Source of the DNA: Eremomyces bilateralis CBS 781.70
Taxonomy: Eukaryota
Reading direction: 5' to 3' (one strand)
NCBI GenBank assembly: GCA_010015585.1
Contig: ML975149.1
DNA length: 49,067 bases
Under the pieces are notes generated by a model that saw only the letters and a list, made by a program, of their open reading frames with translations, was not told the DNA's origin and did not search any database. Shown here in pieces: positions 33,131 to 48,145 of this stretch (positions are counted from its first letter, which is position 1; the number at the start of each line of letters is the position of its first letter). The translations under genes and the position numbers were made by a program.

Positions 33131-34594
33131 ATGGGTCCATCCTCCCCTAAGCAGTCCGCAAAGCCTGAACCAACAACGCAACTCTCGTCGTGGATTTCAT
33201 CGGCGACTTTGAACGATATACCGGAAGAAATTCGGGTTCGTGCAAAACATCTGATCTTAGATGGCCTTGGATGCGGGCTCCTTGGTGCCCATCTGCCATC
33301 TTCTGAGAAAGCTGCTCGAGCTATCTTTGACCTAGAGCCTGTTGGCGACGCGACTGTGATTGGTTGGCCAGATAAAAAGCTCCCATCCCTTTCCGCAGCG
33401 CTTCTCAATAGCGCGTTCATTCAGGGCTTCGAGCTTGATGACTGGCACAGCGAAGCACCGATCCATTCCAACAGCATTCTGCTGCCTGCCTTGTTCGCTG
33501 CTGCCGAGCATGTAGTATCCAAAGATAACAAATCCTCGCTGGTTTCCGGATCCGATATTCTTCTTGCCACAATCATCGGATACGAGGTCGGCCCGCGTGT
33601 CGGCCTTGCGCTTCACGGTGCTCACGTTCTCACAACTGGATGGCACTCCGGCGCCGTCTTCGGGCCCGCAGTAGCAGCTTCCGCTGTTGGCAAACTGCTT
33701 GGTCTCACGCCCGAACAGATCGAAGATGCATTCGGGGTCGCGTGCACGCAAGCCTGCGGTTTAATGTCTGCACAGTTTGGAAGCGAAGTCAAGCGAATGC
33801 AGCATGGCTTTGCGGCCCGGAACGGCCTTCTCGCGGCATTCCTGGCCCAGGGTGGCTATATCGGGATCAAGCGCGTGTTCGAGCAGGAATACGGCGGCTT
33901 CCTCAAACAGTTCAGCTCCGGCAACGGCATGGAACCTCAGTACCTGGTGGACGAACTGACCAAGGATCTTGGTGTCAAGTGGCAGACTCAGGGCGTGCGC
34001 GTGAAACCGTACGCGTCTATGGCCGGCACTCATCCCACTATTGACTGTGTCCGCAAGCTGCAAGAGCTTTATCCGGAGCCGATGCAAAACTGGACCAGTG
34101 ACATCGCAAAAATCACCATTGAGCTGGGCGAAGCGGCCTTTCATCACGGTGGCTGGAAAGCCATCCGCCCCCTCACAAGCACAGGGGCGCAGATGAGCAA
34201 TGCCTACGTTGCTGCAACGCAGATTGTTTATGGGGAGGTGCTTGCGGCGCAATTCAGGCATGACATGCTGGAGAATGACAACCTTTGGAGGCTGGTCGAT
34301 GTGACGGACTGTGTTTTGACAAAAGAAATAGGTGCTCCTCGTGGACGACAGACCGTCACGGTCGAATTCAAAGACGGCACCGTGTTGAGGCAGCGTGTAG
34401 ATTCGGCTCGAGGAGTCGAGCCCCCTCTGTCGAACCAGGAGATTATCGAAAAATGGAGACAGATCACGAAAGACGTCATAGACATTGAGAGAGCCGAAAA
34501 GATTGAAAGGTTGGTTTTGGAGCTGGAAAAGTGCGATGATATCATGTTACTCCAGGGGCTGATGGGTGGATTGACAAAGAATCCGATAGCGTAA
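33131..34594 (+). CDS. cis-aconitate decarboxylase-like MmgE/PrpD protein (CadA/IRG1 family), intronless
   Basis: AKHLILDGLGC, NSAFIQGFELDDWHSEAPIHS, GWHSGAVFGP, ACTQACGLMSAQFG..KRMQHGFAARNGL and YGGFLKQF match the Aspergillus terreus CadA pattern as I recall it. Confidence 0.88.
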   Translation: MGPSSPKQSAKPEPTTQLSSWISSATLNDIPEEIRVRAKHLILDGLGCGLLGAHLPSSEKAARAIFDLEPVGDATVIGWPDKKLPSLSAALLNSAFIQGFELDDWHSEAPIHSNSILLPALFAAAEHVVSKDNKSSLVSGSDILLATIIGYEVGPRVGLALHGAHVLTTGWHSGAVFGPAVAASAVGKLLGLTPEQIEDAFGVACTQACGLMSAQFGSEVKRMQHGFAARNGLLAAFLAQGGYIGIKRVFEQEYGGFLKQFSSGNGMEPQYLVDELTKDLGVKWQTQGVRVKPYASMAGTHPTIDCVRKLQELYPEPMQNWTSDIAKITIELGEAAFHHGGWKAIRPLTSTGAQMSNAYVAATQIVYGEVLAAQFRHDMLENDNLWRLVDVTDCVLTKEIGAPRGRQTVTVEFKDGTVLRQRVDSARGVEPPLSNQEIIEKWRQITKDVIDIERAEKIERLVLELEKCDDIMLLQGLMGGLTKNPIA

Positions 34595-34713
34595 TTAGTA
34601 TAAATAATTCAATAATGATTATAGAATGACCATGCATAAAGGCGCTTTCGTGTGTAAGAAATCGAATGTGGGTGCGACGTGGTTTTGAACTATATTCCTC
34701 AGATTTTGGTAGG

Positions 34714-44914: not shown

Positions 44915-45559
44915 GACTTGTTCTGCACTGTCGTTCAAGGAGTTTTACTGAAATGTATACGAGAATATAAGCTTGCTTCGATATAGCATGGCGATGTTCG
45001 AGCTTCTTGCTTCAGGCACTCCACACGGGGTATTGATAGCTCCCTCGAAAATAACTCAGGTGCTTATCCTAGAACAAAAATGCCGAACTAGAAGAATCCA
45101 AAGTCAATTCTATGCGACGATAGAACGTTGCCGATGCTCGCCGAACAGCCGCATGAACTTGGCGGCAAGATTGACGCCGACCGTGATTTATGGTACAAGG
45201 ACGTGATCTAGAACGAATACTTTCTAAGCATTTTCAGAAATTGCGATAATTATCGATATTCAAGTCTGGTCTACGGATAGAGCCAAGGGATTCGCCGATG
45301 CCTTGGCCGACCCGCGCCGATTCGAGTCCCTTAGCGTCTCCGACTCTGACTTCCGTTCCGATCCCGATCTGCACTTGCGCAATAGGCGTCATTTCGGGAA
45401 ATAGTGCTGTCTGAAAATGAGGTGAACTGAGTAATGTCAAGTGGAGCTGGCAACATAAATCGAAAAGGCGTGACCAAAGGAACACATACAAGTACCCAGC
45501 GAAATCGGAAATGAACCCATTCTATGCTATTTGTTATCTTTTTGCTGTCGTCATCCCGA

Positions 45560-48145
45560 ATGAAAATCAATATGTCTGGATTAGTGAGTGAGAATCAAGA
45601 TGACAGAGGGAGCCTGGTAGAGCTGCTCAAAGTCACTAGAGCAATCGATGTCAAGGGTTTGTGCCTCCAAAAGCTCAAACGCCAAGCCCCGCTGCGGACT
45701 AATTGCAATAGGATTCCTATTGTCAGGAGATATTCTCTCACAAATCGAAAGCCTTTCAGAGCAGTTGAAGTTAGACCGACACGAGCGCGAGGCCGATGCA
45801 TTGCAAGAAGTTCATCAGCACTGTACGACCAAAACAGACTTTGGAGGACTCGGCCTTGCAACAAATCACCAGTTTAGTGATGCCGATGTTACTGAGGTCC
45901 TTTTCTTGGTGTCGGCATATCTGGAAGCCCTCAATTACCAAGACCGAAATTCATCTCCAGCACCAGCTCTAAATCAGCGTCCAGCTGGGCGTCGGGGCAT
46001 GACTCTTGCCGAGAAGATATTTGCTGCCCATGATGTCTCTCGGAGAGGCGAAGTCAAACCAGGCGACGTTATCCGTCTGGACGTCGATTGGATCATGGCA
46101 AGCGAGCTCTCATGGCATGCAATGGAAAAGACATACGAGTCACTCGGCAAACCGGGAATATTTCGCAACGATAGGCTCTGGATAGCTGGCGATCATGTTG
46201 TGGACCCACGCGTGATGAACCATCCTCGGGTCAAGCCTCTGGTCGAGTCGAGCGAGAGGGCGAGAAAGGTTTTTAAACTGACAGAGTATCAAGGAATGAA
46301 TTATACCATCATGCATACGGAGTTTTGCCGAGAGAGAGCACAGCCGGGAATGCTGATCATAGGATCCGACTCGCATACATGTTCTGCTGGAAGTGTATCG
46401 AGTCTCGCTATTGGTCTTGGTGTTGCTGATGTCACTCTCCCACTCGTGACAGGCGAGACGTGGATCAAGGTTCCGGAAACGGTTGAGATACGTTTTGTCA
46501 ATAAACCACGGCCAGGCCTAGGGGGCAAAGATATTATCTTGTATATCCTGAAGGAGCTTAAAAGGAACACTGTCGCAGCGCAAAGAGTAGTCGAGTATAC
46601 TGGTCCAGGGTTGAAGCACCTCTCCTGCGATGCTCGATTCGCGTTCTGCAATATGACAACGGTAAGTTCGTCTAATCTTGAGCTTGAAAGGCGCCTAAAA
46701 GCAAGCAGGAGTTTGGCGGCATCACGGGCGTATGCGTTCCTGATGAGATTACCAAAGCATTCATCAATAGAAGGAAGAACCCCAAGCACAAGAAGAACGC
46801 TCTGTACTATCAGCCTGACAAGGACGCACAATACGCCGAACGCTACACAATCGATCTCCATAAGGTCGAACCATTTGTCGCGCGTTACCCCAGCCCCGAT
46901 GACGTTGTGCCCGTAAATGAGGTTGCAGGTACGACGTTGGATGGATGCTTCATAGGCGCCTGTACAACTGCGCATGAAGACTTGGTCCTTGCAGCCCTAG
47001 TCCTCGAGGCCGGTTTGAACAGAGGCATGAGACCGGTGACGAATGGCAAACGGAAAGTCGTCCCCGGGTCTCGCCCGATACTCCATGACTTGAAGGTTCG
47101 AGGCTTGGCCGATGTATACAAGAGAGCTGGATTCGACATAGGGGTTCCGGGTTGCAGTTATTGCGTGGGAATGTCTGCAGACAAGGCTGAAGTGGGTGAG
47201 GTTTGGCTGAGTAGTCAAAACAGGAATTTTGAAAATCGAATGGGCCCTGGTTCGTTACGATTCCACAGGTATAGGACCATGCTTACAAAGTCCACAGGAG
47301 CAATTGGAAGTATCGCATCTGCAGTCACTGTTGCTGCAAGTAGCTTCAGCATGACGATAACGGACCCAACTTCCCTTCTTGATGATATTGACTTGACCCG
47401 CTTGGAGAAGATCTTGGGTACTAAGGCGGAAGAGAAATCTCCGCTTCGATATGTTGAACCGGCAGCCCAAGAAACGCGGCAAAGACCGATTACATATAGT
47501 GCTCCACCACTGGCAAGAGAAGGGACTATAGACTCACCTGTATCATCTCGCACCGATAGAGCCATAATCGGCAAAGTCCAAACAATTGGCGACTTCATAG
47601 ACACCGACGCACTAGCTCCCGCTGAGGCTTTGGTCAGCGCACAGACGGCCGAAGAATTTGGAGAGTACTGCCTCTATCACACGCATCCCGACTTCCGGCG
47701 GCGGGTCAAGGAAGAGGGGCTTAACGTGGTCGTCGCTGGCAAGGGTTTTGGGGTCGGATCGTCACGGGAGAACGCCGTGACAGCATTGCTCGGAGCCGGC
47801 GTACAGTGCGTGATTGCACGGTCATTTGCATTCATCTATGCGCGAAACCAGCCGAACTTGGGCTTATTGGGTATTGTAATCGAGGAGGAGGGGTTCTACA
47901 GCGTTGCCAAAGATGGAGCTGAAATCGAAATCGATGTTGCAAGGCGTGTTATCAAAGTTGGGGGCAGAGAGTTCGGATTCCAGATAAGTGAGCTGGAGAT
48001 CCGGTTGTGGCAGCAAGGAGGGATGAGTGCATCGTTCGCCCGATGGGGAAGGGTAGTGCTGGAGAAGATAACGACGGGAAGCCATGCTTTTGCGGGAGAA
48101 GGAACTTTGGAAAGATCTCAGCATGGTGAAGAGCTGAAATGGTAG
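45560..48145 (+). CDS. Aconitase-family [4Fe-4S] hydratase, fused LeuC-LeuD (isopropylmalate/dimethylmaleate dehydratase-like) with N-terminal extension
   Basis: [51 protein letters not shown] and FGVGSSRE. Introns ~45657-45711, ~46662-46708 and ~47249-47298. Start codon uncertain. Confidence 0.88.

What the first reader, a model, noticed from the sequence alone, without database searches (positions are those of the whole stretch)
33131..48145. Six-gene cluster: candidate undescribed CoA-independent tricarballylate/aconitate/itaconate-type pathway in a fungus
Seen: a CadA-like decarboxylase, Zn2Cys6 TF, ACS permease divergent from a TcuA-like flavoprotein, and a DMML-like lyase divergent from a LeuCD-like hydratase, all apparently intact. 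Established: Salmonella TcuA oxidises tricarballylate to cis-aconitate; CadA/IRG1 decarboxylates cis-aconitate to itaconate; LeuCD-type enzymes hydrate alkylmaleates (citraconate to R-citramalate; E. barkeri DmdAB); ICL-superfamily DMML/petal death protein cleaves alkylmalates to pyruvate plus a carboxylate. Inference: import, oxidation, decarboxylation, hydration and C-C cleavage would give pyruvate + acetate (or propionate for a methylated substrate). This differs from the A. terreus itaconate cluster (cadA/mttA/mfsA) and the CoA-dependent Ict/Ich/Ccl route; no mttA-like or Ict/Ich/Ccl-like gene is seen here. I know of no description of this combination.
Basis: partly seen in the sequence, partly recalled or inferred. 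Interest (0 to 1): 0.9.

Follow-up and report, generated by a model that had tools for sequence, protein, structure and literature searches.

The report
Fungal organic-acid breakdown gene cluster
Six neighbouring, transcribed fungal genes look like an undescribed route for importing a small branched organic acid and cutting it into pyruvate and a short acid without coenzyme A, but the substrate and each reaction are still inferred.

Summary
Window 33131-48145 carries six intact genes: an IRG1/CAD-like MmgE/PrpD protein, a Zn2Cys6 factor, an ACS-type MFS permease, a TcuA-family flavoprotein, an OAH/DMML-class lyase and a fused LeuC-LeuD/DmdAB-type Fe-S hydratase. Spliced RNA contigs cover all six.

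The IRG1-like gene and the hydratase lie within five gene models of each other in 7 of 8 other fungi checked. Penicillium bovifimosum also has the TcuA-like gene between them. My paper searches found no description of the cluster.

- The flavoprotein is 30% identical to the tcuRAB-operon TcuA. It fails one of NCBI's two TcuA models, and no TcuB is encoded.
- The residues the first protein shares with CAD are common to the whole family.
- The proposed route lacks an itaconate-to-citraconate step.
- The hydratase specificity loop and the lyase's DMML-like features fit an alkylmaleate to alkylmalate to pyruvate end module.

Best reading (0.45): a CoA-independent catabolic cluster for a small branched polycarboxylate, with tricarballylate or aconitate one candidate substrate. 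Rivals are C5-diacid catabolism, a methylcitrate-like isomerise-and-cleave route, and biosynthesis. It is a new combination of known enzyme kinds.

The parts
33131..34594 (+). G1: IRG1/CAD-like MmgE/PrpD-family protein, 487 aa, single exon
   Evidence: Pfam MmgE_PrpD_N 232.8 bits and MmgE_PrpD_C 120.4 bits. The best solved relatives are B. subtilis IRG1 (113 bits) and mammalian cis-aconitate decarboxylases (97-105 bits), followed by IDS epimerase (85 bits). No PrpD or MmgE dehydratase chain reached E<=1e-5. The NCBIfam prpD models give about 30 bits against cut-offs of 458 and 575. An identical protein, P0121, is in the database. An RNA contig covers it.
34714..37102 (-). G2: Zn2Cys6 transcription factor, 684 aa, 7 exons (37102-37028, 36978-36872, 36823-36362, 36315-35878, 35824-35565, 35472-35039, 34992-34714)
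   Evidence: Pfam Fungal_trans. The Cys6 motif spans intron 1. All six introns are skipped in an RNA contig, and the resulting frame is open. Relatives lie beside G1 relatives in metagenome loci L001, L002 and L013.
39513..41379 (-). G3: MFS permease, 504 aa, 6 exons, anion:cation symporter (ACS) type
   Evidence: Pfam MFS_1 on two exons. The only NCBIfam hits are weak ones to two ACS-family models: TIGR00893 (2A0114, E 7e-6 and 7e-5) and HpaX. Three of the five introns are seen spliced; the other two are my prediction. A relative at 38-53% identity follows the G1 relative in L002.
41380..41819 (.). Divergent promoter region between the permease and the flavoprotein
   Evidence: ATGs at 41379 (-) and 41820 (+). 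It holds one CGG-N11-CCG site at 41509. This is a lead only.
41820..43532 (+). G4: TcuA-family FAD flavoprotein, 511 aa, 4 exons (41820-42301, 42356-42902, 42964-43234, 43297-43532)
   Evidence: Pfam FAD_binding_2. All three introns are spliced in RNA. My model equals P0241 in length, and P0241 is 100% identical over exon 2. NF006130 scores 452.5 against a cut-off of 369, and TIGR02485 scores 230.6 against 372.55. It is 52-56% identical to actinobacterial relatives and 30.3% identical to the Salmonella plasmid tcuA that lies next to tcuB.
43907..44914 (-). G5: OAH/DMML-class PEP-mutase/isocitrate-lyase-superfamily lyase, 313 aa, 2 exons (44914-44768, 44701-43907)
   Evidence: Pfam PEP_mutase 109.9 bits and ICL 59.7 bits. 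Solved relatives: oxaloacetate acetylhydrolase 3lye 250 bits, 2,3-dimethylmalate lyase 3fa3 247 bits, 2-methylisocitrate lyases at most 134 bits. The prpB model gives 179 bits against a cut-off of 354. The motifs DADTGYGG, HLEDQ, KRCGH and ARTD are present. The intron is spliced in RNA.
44915..45559 (.). Divergent promoter region between the lyase and the hydratase
   Evidence: The RNA contigs of the two genes reach inward to about 45203 and about 45272. I derived these ends from the record lengths. One CGG-N11-CCG site lies at 45163. This is a lead only.
45560..48145 (+). G6: fused LeuC-LeuD/DmdAB-type Fe-S hydratase, about 807-811 aa, 4 exons (45560 or 45572 to 45656, 45712-46661, 46709-47249, 47298-48145), with a roughly 140-aa N-terminal extension of no known family
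   Evidence: Pfam Aconitase and Aconitase_C. The NCBIfam LeuD/DmdB small-subunit family scores 115.7 against a cut-off of 108.95. The best large-subunit models are the archaeal-type IPMI/homoaconitase families. Solved relatives are M. jannaschii homoaconitase and isopropylmalate/citramalate isomerase subunits. The cluster cysteines in DSHTC and CSYC are present. Two introns are spliced in RNA; the third (46662-46708) is supported only by alignment to eight homologues.
24779..31884 (.). Degenerate transposon remnants bounding the cluster upstream
   Evidence: Fragment hits to RVT_1 (27567-27977) and DDE_1 (31501-31881). AT skew reaches up to 0.34.

Best explanation
This is a substrate-specific catabolic gene cluster for a small branched polycarboxylic acid that works on the free acid, without CoA esters.

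Proposed order:
1. The ACS-type MFS permease takes up the acid.
2. The TcuA-family flavoprotein introduces a C=C bond next to a carboxylate. Tricarballylate to cis-aconitate is the model reaction.
3. The IRG1/CAD-like protein removes CO2 from the unsaturated acid, or shifts its double bond, to give a 2-alkylmaleate such as citraconate or dimethylmaleate.
4. The fused LeuCD/DmdAB-type Fe-S hydratase adds water to give a 2-alkylmalate, such as (R)-citramalate or 2,3-dimethylmalate.
5. The OAH/DMML-class lyase splits this by a retro-aldol reaction into pyruvate plus acetate or propionate.
6. The Zn2Cys6 factor switches the genes on.

Shown: the genes are present, intact, transcribed and spliced; their family placements; and the conserved linkage of the IRG1-like gene with the hydratase.

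Inferred: every substrate, the direction of the flavoprotein, the order of the steps and the role of the regulator.

Among entry substrates I put tricarballylate or aconitate at about 0.25 and C5 diacids (itaconate, methylsuccinate, citraconate) at about 0.2. The second is listed below as a rival.
For: Family placements.

End module.
- The hydratase small domain passes the LeuD/DmdB family cut-off (115.7 against 108.95).
- Its substrate loop reads ALVS. It aligns to YLVY of the M. jannaschii isopropylmalate/citramalate isomerase (3vba, 86.8 bits), not to YLRT of homoaconitase (2pkp, 76 bits). It therefore has Val where homoaconitase has Arg. That this Arg selects the extra carboxylate is recalled from the literature, not read here.
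- The lyase is about as close to DMML (247 bits) as to OAH (250 bits), and far from PrpB (134 bits or less). It has Pro where DMML has Pro and OAH has Ser (alignment). That this position is an OAH marker is recalled.
- The lyase and hydratase are transcribed divergently from about 650 bp.

G1 is much nearer to CAD/IRG1 than to PrpD dehydratases.

No CoA-handling enzyme is in the window.

All six genes lie under RNA contigs, and five show spliced introns.

Linkage.
- The hydratase and the IRG1-like gene share a contig in 11 pairs found between the two top-120 lists.
- They are within 5 accession or locus-tag steps in 7 of 8 species checked: P. bovifimosum, T. hemipterigena, A. terreus, T. barbatum, D. 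bambusicola, A. rambellii and A. ochraceoroseus. The exception is P. alfredii.
- The linkage occurs in both main clades of the hydratase tree.
- In P. bovifimosum the TcuA-like gene (KAJ5124318) lies between the hydratase (KAJ5124316) and the IRG1-like gene (KAJ5124319).
- Gene-model fusions of the hydratase with Zn2Cys6/Fungal_trans domains in Trichoderma and Talaromyces point to an adjacent regulator there too.

In bacteria, an ICL-superfamily lyase lies beside or near relatives of G4 in 6 of 18 loci fetched.

Recalled and unverified: both fungi that carry the flavoprotein in the cluster are dung isolates, and tricarballylate is made in the rumen from trans-aconitate.
Against: 1. cis-Aconitate could enter central metabolism directly, so three further enzymes would be superfluous for plain tricarballylate.
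2. The CAD product itaconate is not the kind of alkene that aconitase-family enzymes hydrate to a 2-hydroxy acid, and no PrpF/Mii-type isomerase is in the window. The scheme therefore needs an activity not yet known in this family.
3. G4 is only 30.3% identical to operon-context TcuA, fails TIGR02485, and has no TcuB.
4. Microbacterium and Nonomuraea carry 3 and 4 places above the NF006130 cut-off, so that model is unlikely to mark a single function.
5. The nearest bacterial relatives of G4 sit with an aldehyde dehydrogenase, a HIBADH-like dehydrogenase, an MBL-fold protein, PrpF, an MFS and a GntR regulator. A 40%-identical Bradyrhizobium relative sits beside ETF genes.
6. G4 is not core. Among named species in the top 120, only P. 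bovifimosum shares a contig with a hydratase or IRG1-like hit.
7. None of 16 metagenome loci with G1 relatives (45-72% identity) held a hydratase, lyase or TcuA-like hit. Only five of them gave 5 kb or more of flank. Two of those five (L011, L012) sit beside citrate-synthase or PKS-type genes.
8. Of the eight hCAD active-site residues, G1 keeps only the four that are family-wide. The others are D93 to E, T97 missing, H277 to M and Y318 to F (PMC6789909).
9. The lyase has VPGG where DMML has VEHG and OAH has VENG.
10. The flavoprotein could equally act as a reductase.
Confidence: 0.45

Rival explanations
1. This is catabolism or detoxification of C5 branched diacids, with itaconate as the main substrate. 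G1 acts as an itaconate-citraconate isomerase, using the same dienolate intermediate as CAD but without loss of CO2. G4 is a methylsuccinate dehydrogenase feeding citraconate or mesaconate into the same pool. G6 makes (R)-citramalate and G5 gives pyruvate plus acetate. The result would be a CoA-free alternative to the Ict/Ich/Ccl route.
For: The end-module evidence is the same as for the best explanation. The conserved core is the IRG1-like gene plus the hydratase, without the flavoprotein, which fits an imported unsaturated C5 acid better than a saturated C6 acid. The family already contains a proton-shuffling epimerase, and G1 scores 85 bits to IDS epimerase. Citraconate binds the ACOD1 active site (title and abstract of PMC9170585 and PMC12259180 in the listing). 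The smaller module of TF, IRG1-like gene and ACS-type MFS recurs on its own in L002.
Against: No isomerase activity is known for any MmgE/PrpD protein. Fungi already have the CoA-dependent route (PMC6320622, passages read). Sequence alone cannot separate an isomerase from a decarboxylase here.
Confidence: 0.2
2. This is a methylcitrate-cycle-like 'isomerise and cleave' route. G1 is a dehydratase acting on a tertiary hydroxy acid of the citramalate, alkylcitrate or alkylmalate type. G6 rehydrates the alkene to the isomeric hydroxy acid. G5 cleaves that, as PrpD, aconitase and PrpB do in the methylcitrate cycle. G4 feeds in, or removes, a saturated analogue.
For: The same three superfamilies (MmgE/PrpD, aconitase, ICL/PEP mutase) make up the bacterial and fungal methylcitrate cycle (established knowledge). 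The best NCBIfam hit of the lyase is prpB, at 179 bits on 264 of its 313 residues. This route needs no new chemistry. More distant G1 relatives sit beside citrate synthases (L012).
Against: G1 scores about 30 bits on both prpD equivalog models against cut-offs of 458 and 575. No PrpD or MmgE structure reached E<=1e-5, while eight CAD/IRG1 sequences did. No citrate or methylcitrate synthase is in the window. The lyase is far nearer to OAH/DMML than to PrpB (250 and 247 bits against 134). The hydratase is LeuCD-type, not AcnA/AcnB/AcnD-type.
Confidence: 0.15
3. This is a biosynthetic cluster that makes and exports an itaconate- or citraconate-derived acid, as the cadA-mfsA-TF cluster does in A. 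terreus. The extra enzymes modify the product.
For: A CAD-like enzyme with an MFS and a Zn2Cys6 factor mirrors the core of the A. terreus itaconate cluster (recalled). IRG1-like relatives occur in alkylcitrate- and maleidride-type clusters (L011 and L012; source names such as 'oryM'). The A. terreus relative is modelled as fused to a PEBP domain.
Against: No mitochondrial tricarboxylate carrier, citrate synthase, PKS or FAS is in the window. The permease's weak hits are to ACS-family models; that this family consists of uptake carriers is textbook knowledge, not tested here. A retro-aldol lyase paired with a hydratase is a degradative pair in the one known system, E. barkeri DmdAB/Dml (established knowledge).
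Confidence: 0.08
4. The six genes are not a functional unit. They are neighbours by chance in a transposon-rich region.
For: The composition varies between species. The flavoprotein is usually elsewhere. One species, P. alfredii, has the two core genes about 548 accession steps apart. No co-induction data exist, and contig depth cannot rank expression.
Against: The two core genes are linked in 7 of 8 species, across two classes and both hydratase clades. There are two divergent gene pairs, a dedicated regulator and a permease, and the enzyme classes are chemically coherent.
Confidence: 0.05

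Closest known systems
Eubacterium barkeri nicotinate fermentation end module: dimethylmaleate hydratase DmdAB plus 2,3-dimethylmalate lyase Dml
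   Same: A LeuCD-type aconitase-family hydratase is encoded next to an ICL/PEP-mutase-superfamily lyase. The small domain of G6 passes NCBI's LeuD/DmdB family model. G5 scores 247 bits to A. niger DMML.
   Different: Here the two hydratase subunits are fused and carry an extra N-terminal stretch of about 140 aa. None of the upstream nicotinate genes is present: there is no PrpF/Mii isomerase and no B12 mutase. The host is a fungus. I could not compare directly with the DmdA, DmdB or Dml sequences, because no tool returned them.
Aspergillus niger 2,3-dimethylmalate lyase (An07g08390, PDB 3fa3) and fungal oxaloacetate acetylhydrolase (PDB 3lye)
   Same: G5 aligns to both over its full length (250 and 247 bits). 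The catalytic KRCGH loop and the Mg-binding motifs are kept. It has Pro at the DMML-Pro / OAH-Ser position.
   Different: The A. niger DMML gene is flanked by hosA (An07g08380; PMC6784283) and an Asp f 4-like gene (An07g08400; PMC1894978), so it is not in such a cluster. G5 has VPGG in place of VEHG or VENG. The physiological role of the A. niger enzyme was left open by its authors; this is recalled from Narayanan et al. 2009, which is not held here.
Salmonella enterica tricarballylate utilisation operon tcuRABC
   Same: G4 is a flavoprotein of the same family that passes NF006130, and it is encoded next to an MFS permease.
   Different: Identity to the operon-context TcuA is 30.3%. That protein scores 792 and 687 bits on the two models, against 452.5 and 230.6 for G4. 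There is no TcuB here. The regulator is a Zn2Cys6 factor, not a LysR protein.
cis-Aconitate decarboxylase (human/mouse ACOD1, A. terreus CadA) and the A. terreus cadA-mttA-mfsA cluster
   Same: G1 has the MmgE/PrpD fold, and its nearest solved relatives are CAD/IRG1. His103, His159, Lys207 and Lys272 are kept. An MFS and a Zn2Cys6 factor lie alongside.
   Different: Those four residues are also kept in IDS epimerase, and all but His159 are strictly conserved in the dehydratase as well (PMC6789909). Thr97, His277 and Tyr318 are not kept. There is no mttA-like carrier. Three further enzymes are present. I could not compare G1 with CadA itself.
Methylcitrate cycle PrpD - aconitase - PrpB
   Same: The same three enzyme superfamilies are involved.
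   Different: None of the three proteins reaches the corresponding equivalog model, and there is no synthase.

Membership tests
TcuA (FAD-dependent tricarballylate dehydrogenase) | Scores above the curated cut-off of NCBIfam NF006130 | tested here: met
   P0241 (identical to G4) scores 452.5 bits against a cut-off of 369. However, Microbacterium and Nonomuraea genomes hold 3 and 4 places above this cut-off, so the model is probably not specific to one function.
TcuA (FAD-dependent tricarballylate dehydrogenase) | Scores above the curated cut-off of NCBIfam TIGR02485 | tested here: not met
   G4 scores 230.6 bits against a cut-off of 372.55. The Salmonella plasmid TcuA scores 687.4.
TcuA (FAD-dependent tricarballylate dehydrogenase) | Encoded with the TcuB Fe-S partner that reoxidises it | tested here: not met
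   No Fe-S or CCG-type ORF was found among the ORFs scanned in the window. The Salmonella plasmid locus has tcuR-tcuA-tcuB-MFS. The nearest bacterial relatives of G4 also lack tcuB nearby.
TcuA (FAD-dependent tricarballylate dehydrogenase) | Oxidises tricarballylate to cis-aconitate | not testable with these tools
   An enzyme assay is needed.
cis-Aconitate decarboxylase (CAD/IRG1/CadA) | MmgE/PrpD fold, and closer to CAD than to other characterised members | tested here: met
   Pfam. CAD/IRG1 sequences score 97-113 bits, IDS epimerase 85 bits, and no PrpD/MmgE chain reached E<=1e-5. The prpD models give about 30 bits.
cis-Aconitate decarboxylase (CAD/IRG1/CadA) | The eight active-site residues shown to be needed in human CAD (Asp93, Thr97, His103, His159, Lys207, Lys272, His277, Tyr318) | tested here: inconclusive
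   Four are kept (His103, His159, Lys207, Lys272). Asp93 is Glu, Thr97 has no counterpart, His277 is Met and Tyr318 is Phe (alignment). The paper says the same four are the only ones kept in active A. terreus CAD, and that they are shared with IDS epimerase (PMC6789909, passages read).
cis-Aconitate decarboxylase (CAD/IRG1/CadA) | Makes itaconate from cis-aconitate | not testable with these tools
   An assay with product identification is needed.
OAH/DMML class of the PEP mutase/isocitrate lyase superfamily | Superfamily fold with the catalytic Cys loop (KRCGH), the Mg-binding Asp motifs, EDQ and the ARTD arginine | tested here: met
   Pfam. The motifs are read in the model and in the alignments. 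The residue roles come from PMC7609661 (passages read).
OAH/DMML class of the PEP mutase/isocitrate lyase superfamily | Nearer to OAH/DMML than to PrpB, petal death protein or ICL | tested here: met
   250 and 247 bits to OAH and DMML, against at most 134 (PrpB), 119 (petal death protein) and 54 (ICL).
Oxaloacetate acetylhydrolase proper | Ser at the position that is Pro in DMML (marker recalled from Joosten et al. 2008 and Narayanan et al. 2009, neither read here) | tested here: not met
   G5 reads IYPGL, DMML reads IFPFA and OAH reads IFSFA (alignment).
LeuCD/DmdAB-type (archaeal-type IPMI/homoaconitase) hydratases | Aconitase catalytic and swivel domains with the three cluster cysteines | tested here: met
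   Pfam. DSHTC and CSYC are conserved in the window protein and 7 of the 8 homologues aligned; the eighth (P0117) reads CSMC, with both cysteines kept.
LeuCD/DmdAB-type (archaeal-type IPMI/homoaconitase) hydratases | Small-subunit family model TIGR02087 (LeuD/DmdB) above its cut-off | tested here: met
   115.7 bits against a cut-off of 108.95, on exon 3.
LeuCD/DmdAB-type (archaeal-type IPMI/homoaconitase) hydratases | Large-subunit family model NF001614 above its cut-off | tested here: inconclusive
   Only separate exons could be scanned. They gave 148.4 and 122.6 bits against a whole-protein cut-off of 385.
Methylcitrate cycle (PrpD, PrpB, PrpC) | Equivalog-level PrpD and PrpB, and a methylcitrate synthase | tested here: not met
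   PrpD models give about 30 bits against 458 and 575. PrpB gives 179 bits against 354, on 264 of 313 residues. No Citrate_synt domain is in the window.
A. terreus-type itaconate production cluster | A mitochondrial tricarboxylate carrier (mttA) beside cadA and mfsA | tested here: not met
   No Mito_carr hit was found among the 59 window ORF pieces scanned.

The most novel reading that the evidence does not exclude
The IRG1/CAD-like protein has an activity not yet known in its family. Either it decarboxylates cis-aconitate with protonation at C4, giving citraconate instead of itaconate, or it interconverts itaconate and citraconate. Together with the fused DmdAB-type hydratase and the DMML-class lyase it would form a widespread CoA-free fungal route from aconitate or itaconate to pyruvate plus acetate. 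That would give fungal DMML-class lyases and the many fungal 'immune-responsive protein' genes their missing physiological role. In dung-dwelling species, a horizontally related TcuA-like flavoprotein would extend the route to tricarballylate.
Probability: 0.2. Interest if true: 0.8.

Novelty: new variant of a known kind. Interest (0 to 1): 0.6.

Why it matters
Fungi are not known to break down tricarballylate. The only described fungal route for itaconate uses CoA esters (PMC6320622). As I recall the original paper, the role of the DMML-class lyases of filamentous fungi was left open.

This cluster places such a lyase next to the type of hydratase it partners with in the one known bacterial pathway. 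It also adds a dedicated permease, a regulator and a CAD-like enzyme. The IRG1-like/hydratase linkage recurs in Aspergillus (including A. terreus ATEG_08909-08913), Penicillium, Trichoderma, Daldinia and Torrubiella.

That gives a concrete and cheap set of experiments on tractable species. If the route is real, it bears on three things:
- carbon cycling of plant and rumen organic acids;
- itaconate tolerance among soil fungi;
- yield losses in industrial itaconate and citrate strains.

It also shows that NCBI's 'TcuA' name is being applied to proteins with other genomic contexts.

Tried and rejected
Tools and sources that gave nothing:
- No whole genome is held for the window, so paralogues such as Leu1, AcoA, McdA and MclA could not be counted.
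- Earlier findings of the scan: nothing by place or by words.
- The DMML paper (Narayanan 2009) is not held under its DOI or PubMed id. What I say of it is recalled.
- Sequencing runs: no RNA holder is listed on record. The single run returned (X1, kind guessed) proved to contain spliced contigs when laid. Its depths cannot rank the genes.

Searches with negative or uninformative results:
- Paper searches for A. niger neighbours showed only that DMML is not clustered there. ATEG_08909-08913 appear in no searchable paper.
- The metagenome scan with G1 gave 16 loci, and none held the hydratase, lyase or flavoprotein. Most contigs were too short to tell.
- Bacterial loci: none of 18 held a G1-like or G6-like gene beside the TcuA-like gene, so no bacterial operon matches the fungal cluster.
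- The gap at 37103-39512 has no Pfam hit, no Rfam family, no tRNA and no repeat within the window.
- No solved structure matched G4 exon 2 or the C-terminal half of the permease.

Ideas tested and dropped:
- Horizontal transfer of the hydratase. The window protein groups with the Dothideomycetes Verruconis and Periconia (support 84-87, FastTree), so I dropped this.
- A shared regulator site. CGG-N11-CCG lies in three of the four cluster promoter regions, but the window holds 9 such sites against 8.4 expected, and I chose the pattern after looking. I keep it as a lead only.

A first tree run timed out and was repeated with FastTree.

Full report
**What is there**

Stop-to-stop ORFs and Pfam place six gene-sized units between 33131 and 48145. 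I built intron-exon models from GT-AG sites and reading-frame continuity.

I then checked the models against contigs of one public run, X1. When laid on 32500-48400, those contigs skip 15 listed introns, all with canonical ends. The counts are 6 in the transcription factor, 3 in the permease, 3 in the flavoprotein, 1 in the lyase and 2 in the hydratase. Three further joints were not shown. This shows that X1 holds RNA-derived sequence and that the genes are transcribed and spliced.

The contigs corrected one intron and added another in the factor, which is now 684 aa with an open frame. They also added a 5' intron to the hydratase.

The final models are:

| Gene | Product | Coordinates and strand | Length |
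|---|---|---|---|
| G1 | IRG1/CAD-like MmgE/PrpD protein | 33131-34594 (+) | 487 aa |
| G2 | Zn2Cys6 factor | 34714-37102 (-) | 684 aa |
| G3 | MFS permease | 39513-41379 (-) | 504 aa |
| G4 | flavoprotein | 41820-43532 (+) | 511 aa |
| G5 | lyase | 43907-44914 (-) | 313 aa |
| G6 | fused hydratase | about 45560-48145 (+) | about 810 aa |

Proteins identical to G1 (P0121) and, over the exon searched, to G4 (P0241, same length as my model) are in the public protein collection. P0241 carries the source name Eremomyces bilateralis CBS 781.70, a Dothideomycete.

One caveat remains. The 47-nt hydratase intron 46662-46708 is required by alignment to eight homologues. It is unspliced in the long contig listed. 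The window's own hydratase also did not come back from the protein search.

**Surroundings**

Upstream of G1 lie degenerate transposon remnants, with RVT_1 and DDE_1 fragments between 24.8 and 31.9 kb. Downstream lies an unassigned 198-aa open-ended ORF. The rest of the window holds a sugar transporter, a questin-oxidase-like gene, esterases and an SGS-domain gene.

None of the window's ORFs showed a CoA-transferase, CoA-ligase, enoyl-CoA hydratase, citrate synthase, mitochondrial carrier, PrpF-type isomerase or Fe-S TcuB-like domain.

**The proteins one by one**

*G1.* G1 is far closer to cis-aconitate decarboxylases and B. subtilis IRG1 (97-113 bits) than to PrpD. The NCBIfam PrpD models give about 30 bits against cut-offs of 458 and 575, and no PrpD structure reached E<=1e-5.

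Aligned to human CAD, G1 keeps His103, His159, Lys207 and Lys272. It has Glu for Asp93, no counterpart of Thr97, Met for His277 and Phe for Tyr318. The CAD structure paper states that Asp93, His103, Lys207 and Lys272 are also strictly conserved in IDS epimerase and in 2-methylcitrate dehydratase. It also states that the active A. terreus enzyme shares only His103, His159, Lys207 and Lys272 with the human one (PMC6789909, passages read). The sequence therefore fits a decarboxylase but does not prove one.

*G4.* G4 passes NCBI's NF006130 'TcuA' model (452.5 against 369) but fails TIGR02485 (230.6 against 372.55). A TcuA encoded in a tcuR-tcuA-tcuB-MFS operon on a Salmonella plasmid passes both models, at 792 and 687 bits, and is only 30.3% identical to G4.

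The closest bacterial relatives are in Microbacterium, Agromyces and Nonomuraea, at 52-56% identity. In the two loci whose neighbours I scanned (Microbacterium L017 and Nonomuraea L023), the gene sits with an aldehyde dehydrogenase, a 3-hydroxyisobutyrate-dehydrogenase-like protein, an MBL-fold protein and a PrpF-family isomerase. L017 also has an MFS and a GntR regulator. In Nonomuraea there is also an ICL-superfamily lyase, and there is no TcuB. A 40%-identical Bradyrhizobium relative sits beside electron-transfer-flavoprotein genes. Those genomes carry 3 and 4 places above the model's cut-off.

G4 is therefore a member of a TcuA-like family of carboxylate desaturases or reductases. Its substrate is open.

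*G5.* G5 scores 250 bits to oxaloacetate acetylhydrolase and 247 bits to A. niger dimethylmalate lyase, against 134 bits or less to methylisocitrate lyases. It keeps the catalytic loop and the metal-binding motifs. It has Pro where DMML has Pro and OAH has Ser; the significance of that position is recalled, not read here. It differs from both in one motif, reading VPGG where they read VEHG and VENG.

*G6.* G6 has both aconitase domains and the three cluster cysteines. Its small domain passes the LeuD/DmdB family model. Its substrate loop reads ALVS. The aligned loops are YLVY in the isopropylmalate/citramalate isomerase and YLRT in homoaconitase. This points to a small or non-polar substituent rather than a third carboxylate; that reading of the loop is recalled from the literature.

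*G3.* The only family-level hits of G3 are weak ones to two ACS-family transporter models.

**Conservation**

The hydratase has hundreds of fungal relatives of about 800 aa. A FastTree of 99 rows was built from the window protein and the 98 listed hits of 650-900 aa; 22 hits were dropped for length. It splits the family into two well-supported groups, and the window protein groups with other Dothideomycetes.

By accession or locus-tag order, the two genes are this far apart:

| Species | Steps apart |
|---|---|
| A. ochraceoroseus | 1-2 |
| T. hemipterigena | 2 |
| T. barbatum | 2 |
| D. bambusicola | 2 |
| P. bovifimosum | 3 |
| A. terreus (ATEG_08909 / ATEG_08913) | 4 |
| A. rambellii | 5 |
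| P. alfredii | about 548 |

That is 7 of 8 species within five steps. Accession order is a proxy for gene order.

The linked pairs fall in both hydratase groups, so the linkage is old. In P. bovifimosum the TcuA-like gene lies between the two. No other named species in the top 120 flavoprotein hits shares a contig with them.

More distant G1 relatives in metagenome contigs sit with only the factor and the permease (L001, L002, L013). Others sit in alkylcitrate-type surroundings (L011, L012). None lies with a hydratase, lyase or flavoprotein, though only five loci gave useful flanks.

The core is therefore the IRG1-like gene plus the hydratase, probably with the regulator. Whether the lyase is the recurrent middle gene I could not test. 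The flavoprotein is a lineage-specific addition.

**How it most likely works**

The most coherent part is the end of the route. A LeuCD/DmdAB-type hydratase paired with a DMML-class lyase is the arrangement that, in E. barkeri, turns dimethylmaleate into dimethylmalate and then into propionate plus pyruvate (established knowledge).

Upstream of that, a CAD-like enzyme acting on an aconitate-type acid would supply an unsaturated C5 or C6 diacid. A TcuA-like desaturase would supply the aconitate-type acid from its saturated form. An ACS-type permease and a pathway-specific Zn2Cys6 factor are typical of fungal catabolic clusters. No CoA enzyme is encoded.

I therefore favour a CoA-independent catabolic route for a small branched polycarboxylate (0.45).

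The gap is that CAD yields itaconate, whose double bond is not the kind these hydratases turn into a 2-hydroxy acid. Either G1 protonates the decarboxylation intermediate at the other carbon, giving citraconate, or it isomerises itaconate, or another enzyme is missing. The redundancy is that plain cis-aconitate would not need this detour.

The rivals are:
- C5-diacid (itaconate, methylsuccinate) catabolism with G1 as an isomerase (0.2);
- a methylcitrate-like dehydrate, rehydrate and cleave route (0.15), weakened by the distance of G1 from PrpD and the absence of a synthase;
- biosynthesis of an exported acid (0.08);
- no functional unit (0.05).

A circumstantial point for tricarballylate, recalled and not verified here, is that both fungi carrying the flavoprotein in the cluster come from dung, where rumen-made tricarballylate would occur.

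**Known or new**

Nine paper searches ran. They found no description of this gene combination in fungi. The A. niger DMML gene is not in such a cluster. The two A. niger itaconate papers list relatives only in expression tables.

Subscription journals and supplements were not searched, so a description could exist there.

I rate this a new variant of a known kind: known enzyme families and a familiar cluster logic, in a combination whose chemistry may include a new activity for the CAD family.

Noticed in passing
window 37810-38470: The gap between the regulator and the permease has no ORF with a Pfam hit, no Rfam family and no tRNA. RNA-contig depth there nevertheless jumps to 157, with 631 at a one-base insertion at 38078. 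Several contigs have loose ends at 38064, 38283 and 38472. This may be a repeat that is dispersed elsewhere in the genome, or a short abundant transcript.
   Followed up: partly
window 45560-45998 (N-terminus of the hydratase): The hydratase and its roughly 800-aa fungal relatives share an N-terminal extension of about 140 aa before the LeuC-like start MTLAEKIF. It includes conserved motifs such as GGLGL and AYLEALN. No Pfam family is precomputed for it. All but one of the aligned proteins end in a conserved Trp.
   Followed up: partly
window 46662-46708: The 47-nt hydratase intron has good GTAAGT and CAG ends and is required for an intact protein. It is retained in the long RNA contig listed. 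The window's own hydratase protein was also not returned by the protein search, although G1 and G4 were. The public gene model may be truncated or missing.
   Followed up: partly
L017 (Microbacterium) and L023 (Nonomuraea), about 4000-15000: This is a recurrent actinobacterial operon: aldehyde dehydrogenase, TcuA-like flavoprotein, HIBADH-like dehydrogenase, MBL-fold protein and PrpF-family isomerase in both loci, with an ICL-superfamily lyase in Nonomuraea only, and an MFS, a GntR regulator and a second TcuA-like gene in Microbacterium L017. There is no TcuB. Three of the families (HIBADH-like, PrpF, lyase) match enzymes of the E. barkeri nicotinate pathway. The 'TcuA' annotation of these proteins looks over-extended.
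   Followed up: partly
L025-L028 (Neobacillus/Bacillus): Relatives of G4 at 38% identity lie in what looks like an aromatic-compound locus. It holds extradiol dioxygenases, a flavin reductase, an FAA hydrolase and an XylR-like regulator, together with an ICL-superfamily lyase and a second FAD_binding_2 protein.
   Followed up: no
window 37315, 41509, 45163: Three of the window's nine CGG-N11-CCG sites (a Gal4-like spacing) fall in three of the four promoter regions of the cluster, which make up about 4.6% of the window. The window total is not above chance (8.4 expected), and I chose the pattern after looking.
   Followed up: partly
window 43907-44701 (lyase), motif NNVPGGVTP: The lyase has Pro-Gly where both solved fungal relatives have Glu-His (DMML) or Glu-Asn (OAH). 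This may mark a different substrate from either.
   Followed up: no
database proteins P0061, P0101, P0108, P0083, P0084, P0233: Some public gene models fuse the hydratase with a Zn2Cys6/Fungal_trans factor (Talaromyces, Trichoderma) or with an FMN reductase (Aspergillus section Fumigati). The IRG1-like protein is fused with a PEBP domain in A. terreus. These are probably merged neighbouring genes, and they hint at what lies beside these genes in those species.
   Followed up: no
window 21687-23594 and 24779-31884: A type-B carboxylesterase gene lies about 10 kb upstream of the cluster, separated from it by degenerate retroelement and DDE-transposase remnants. Esterases of this family release tricarballylate from fumonisins in bacteria (recalled). 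No link is shown here.
   Followed up: no
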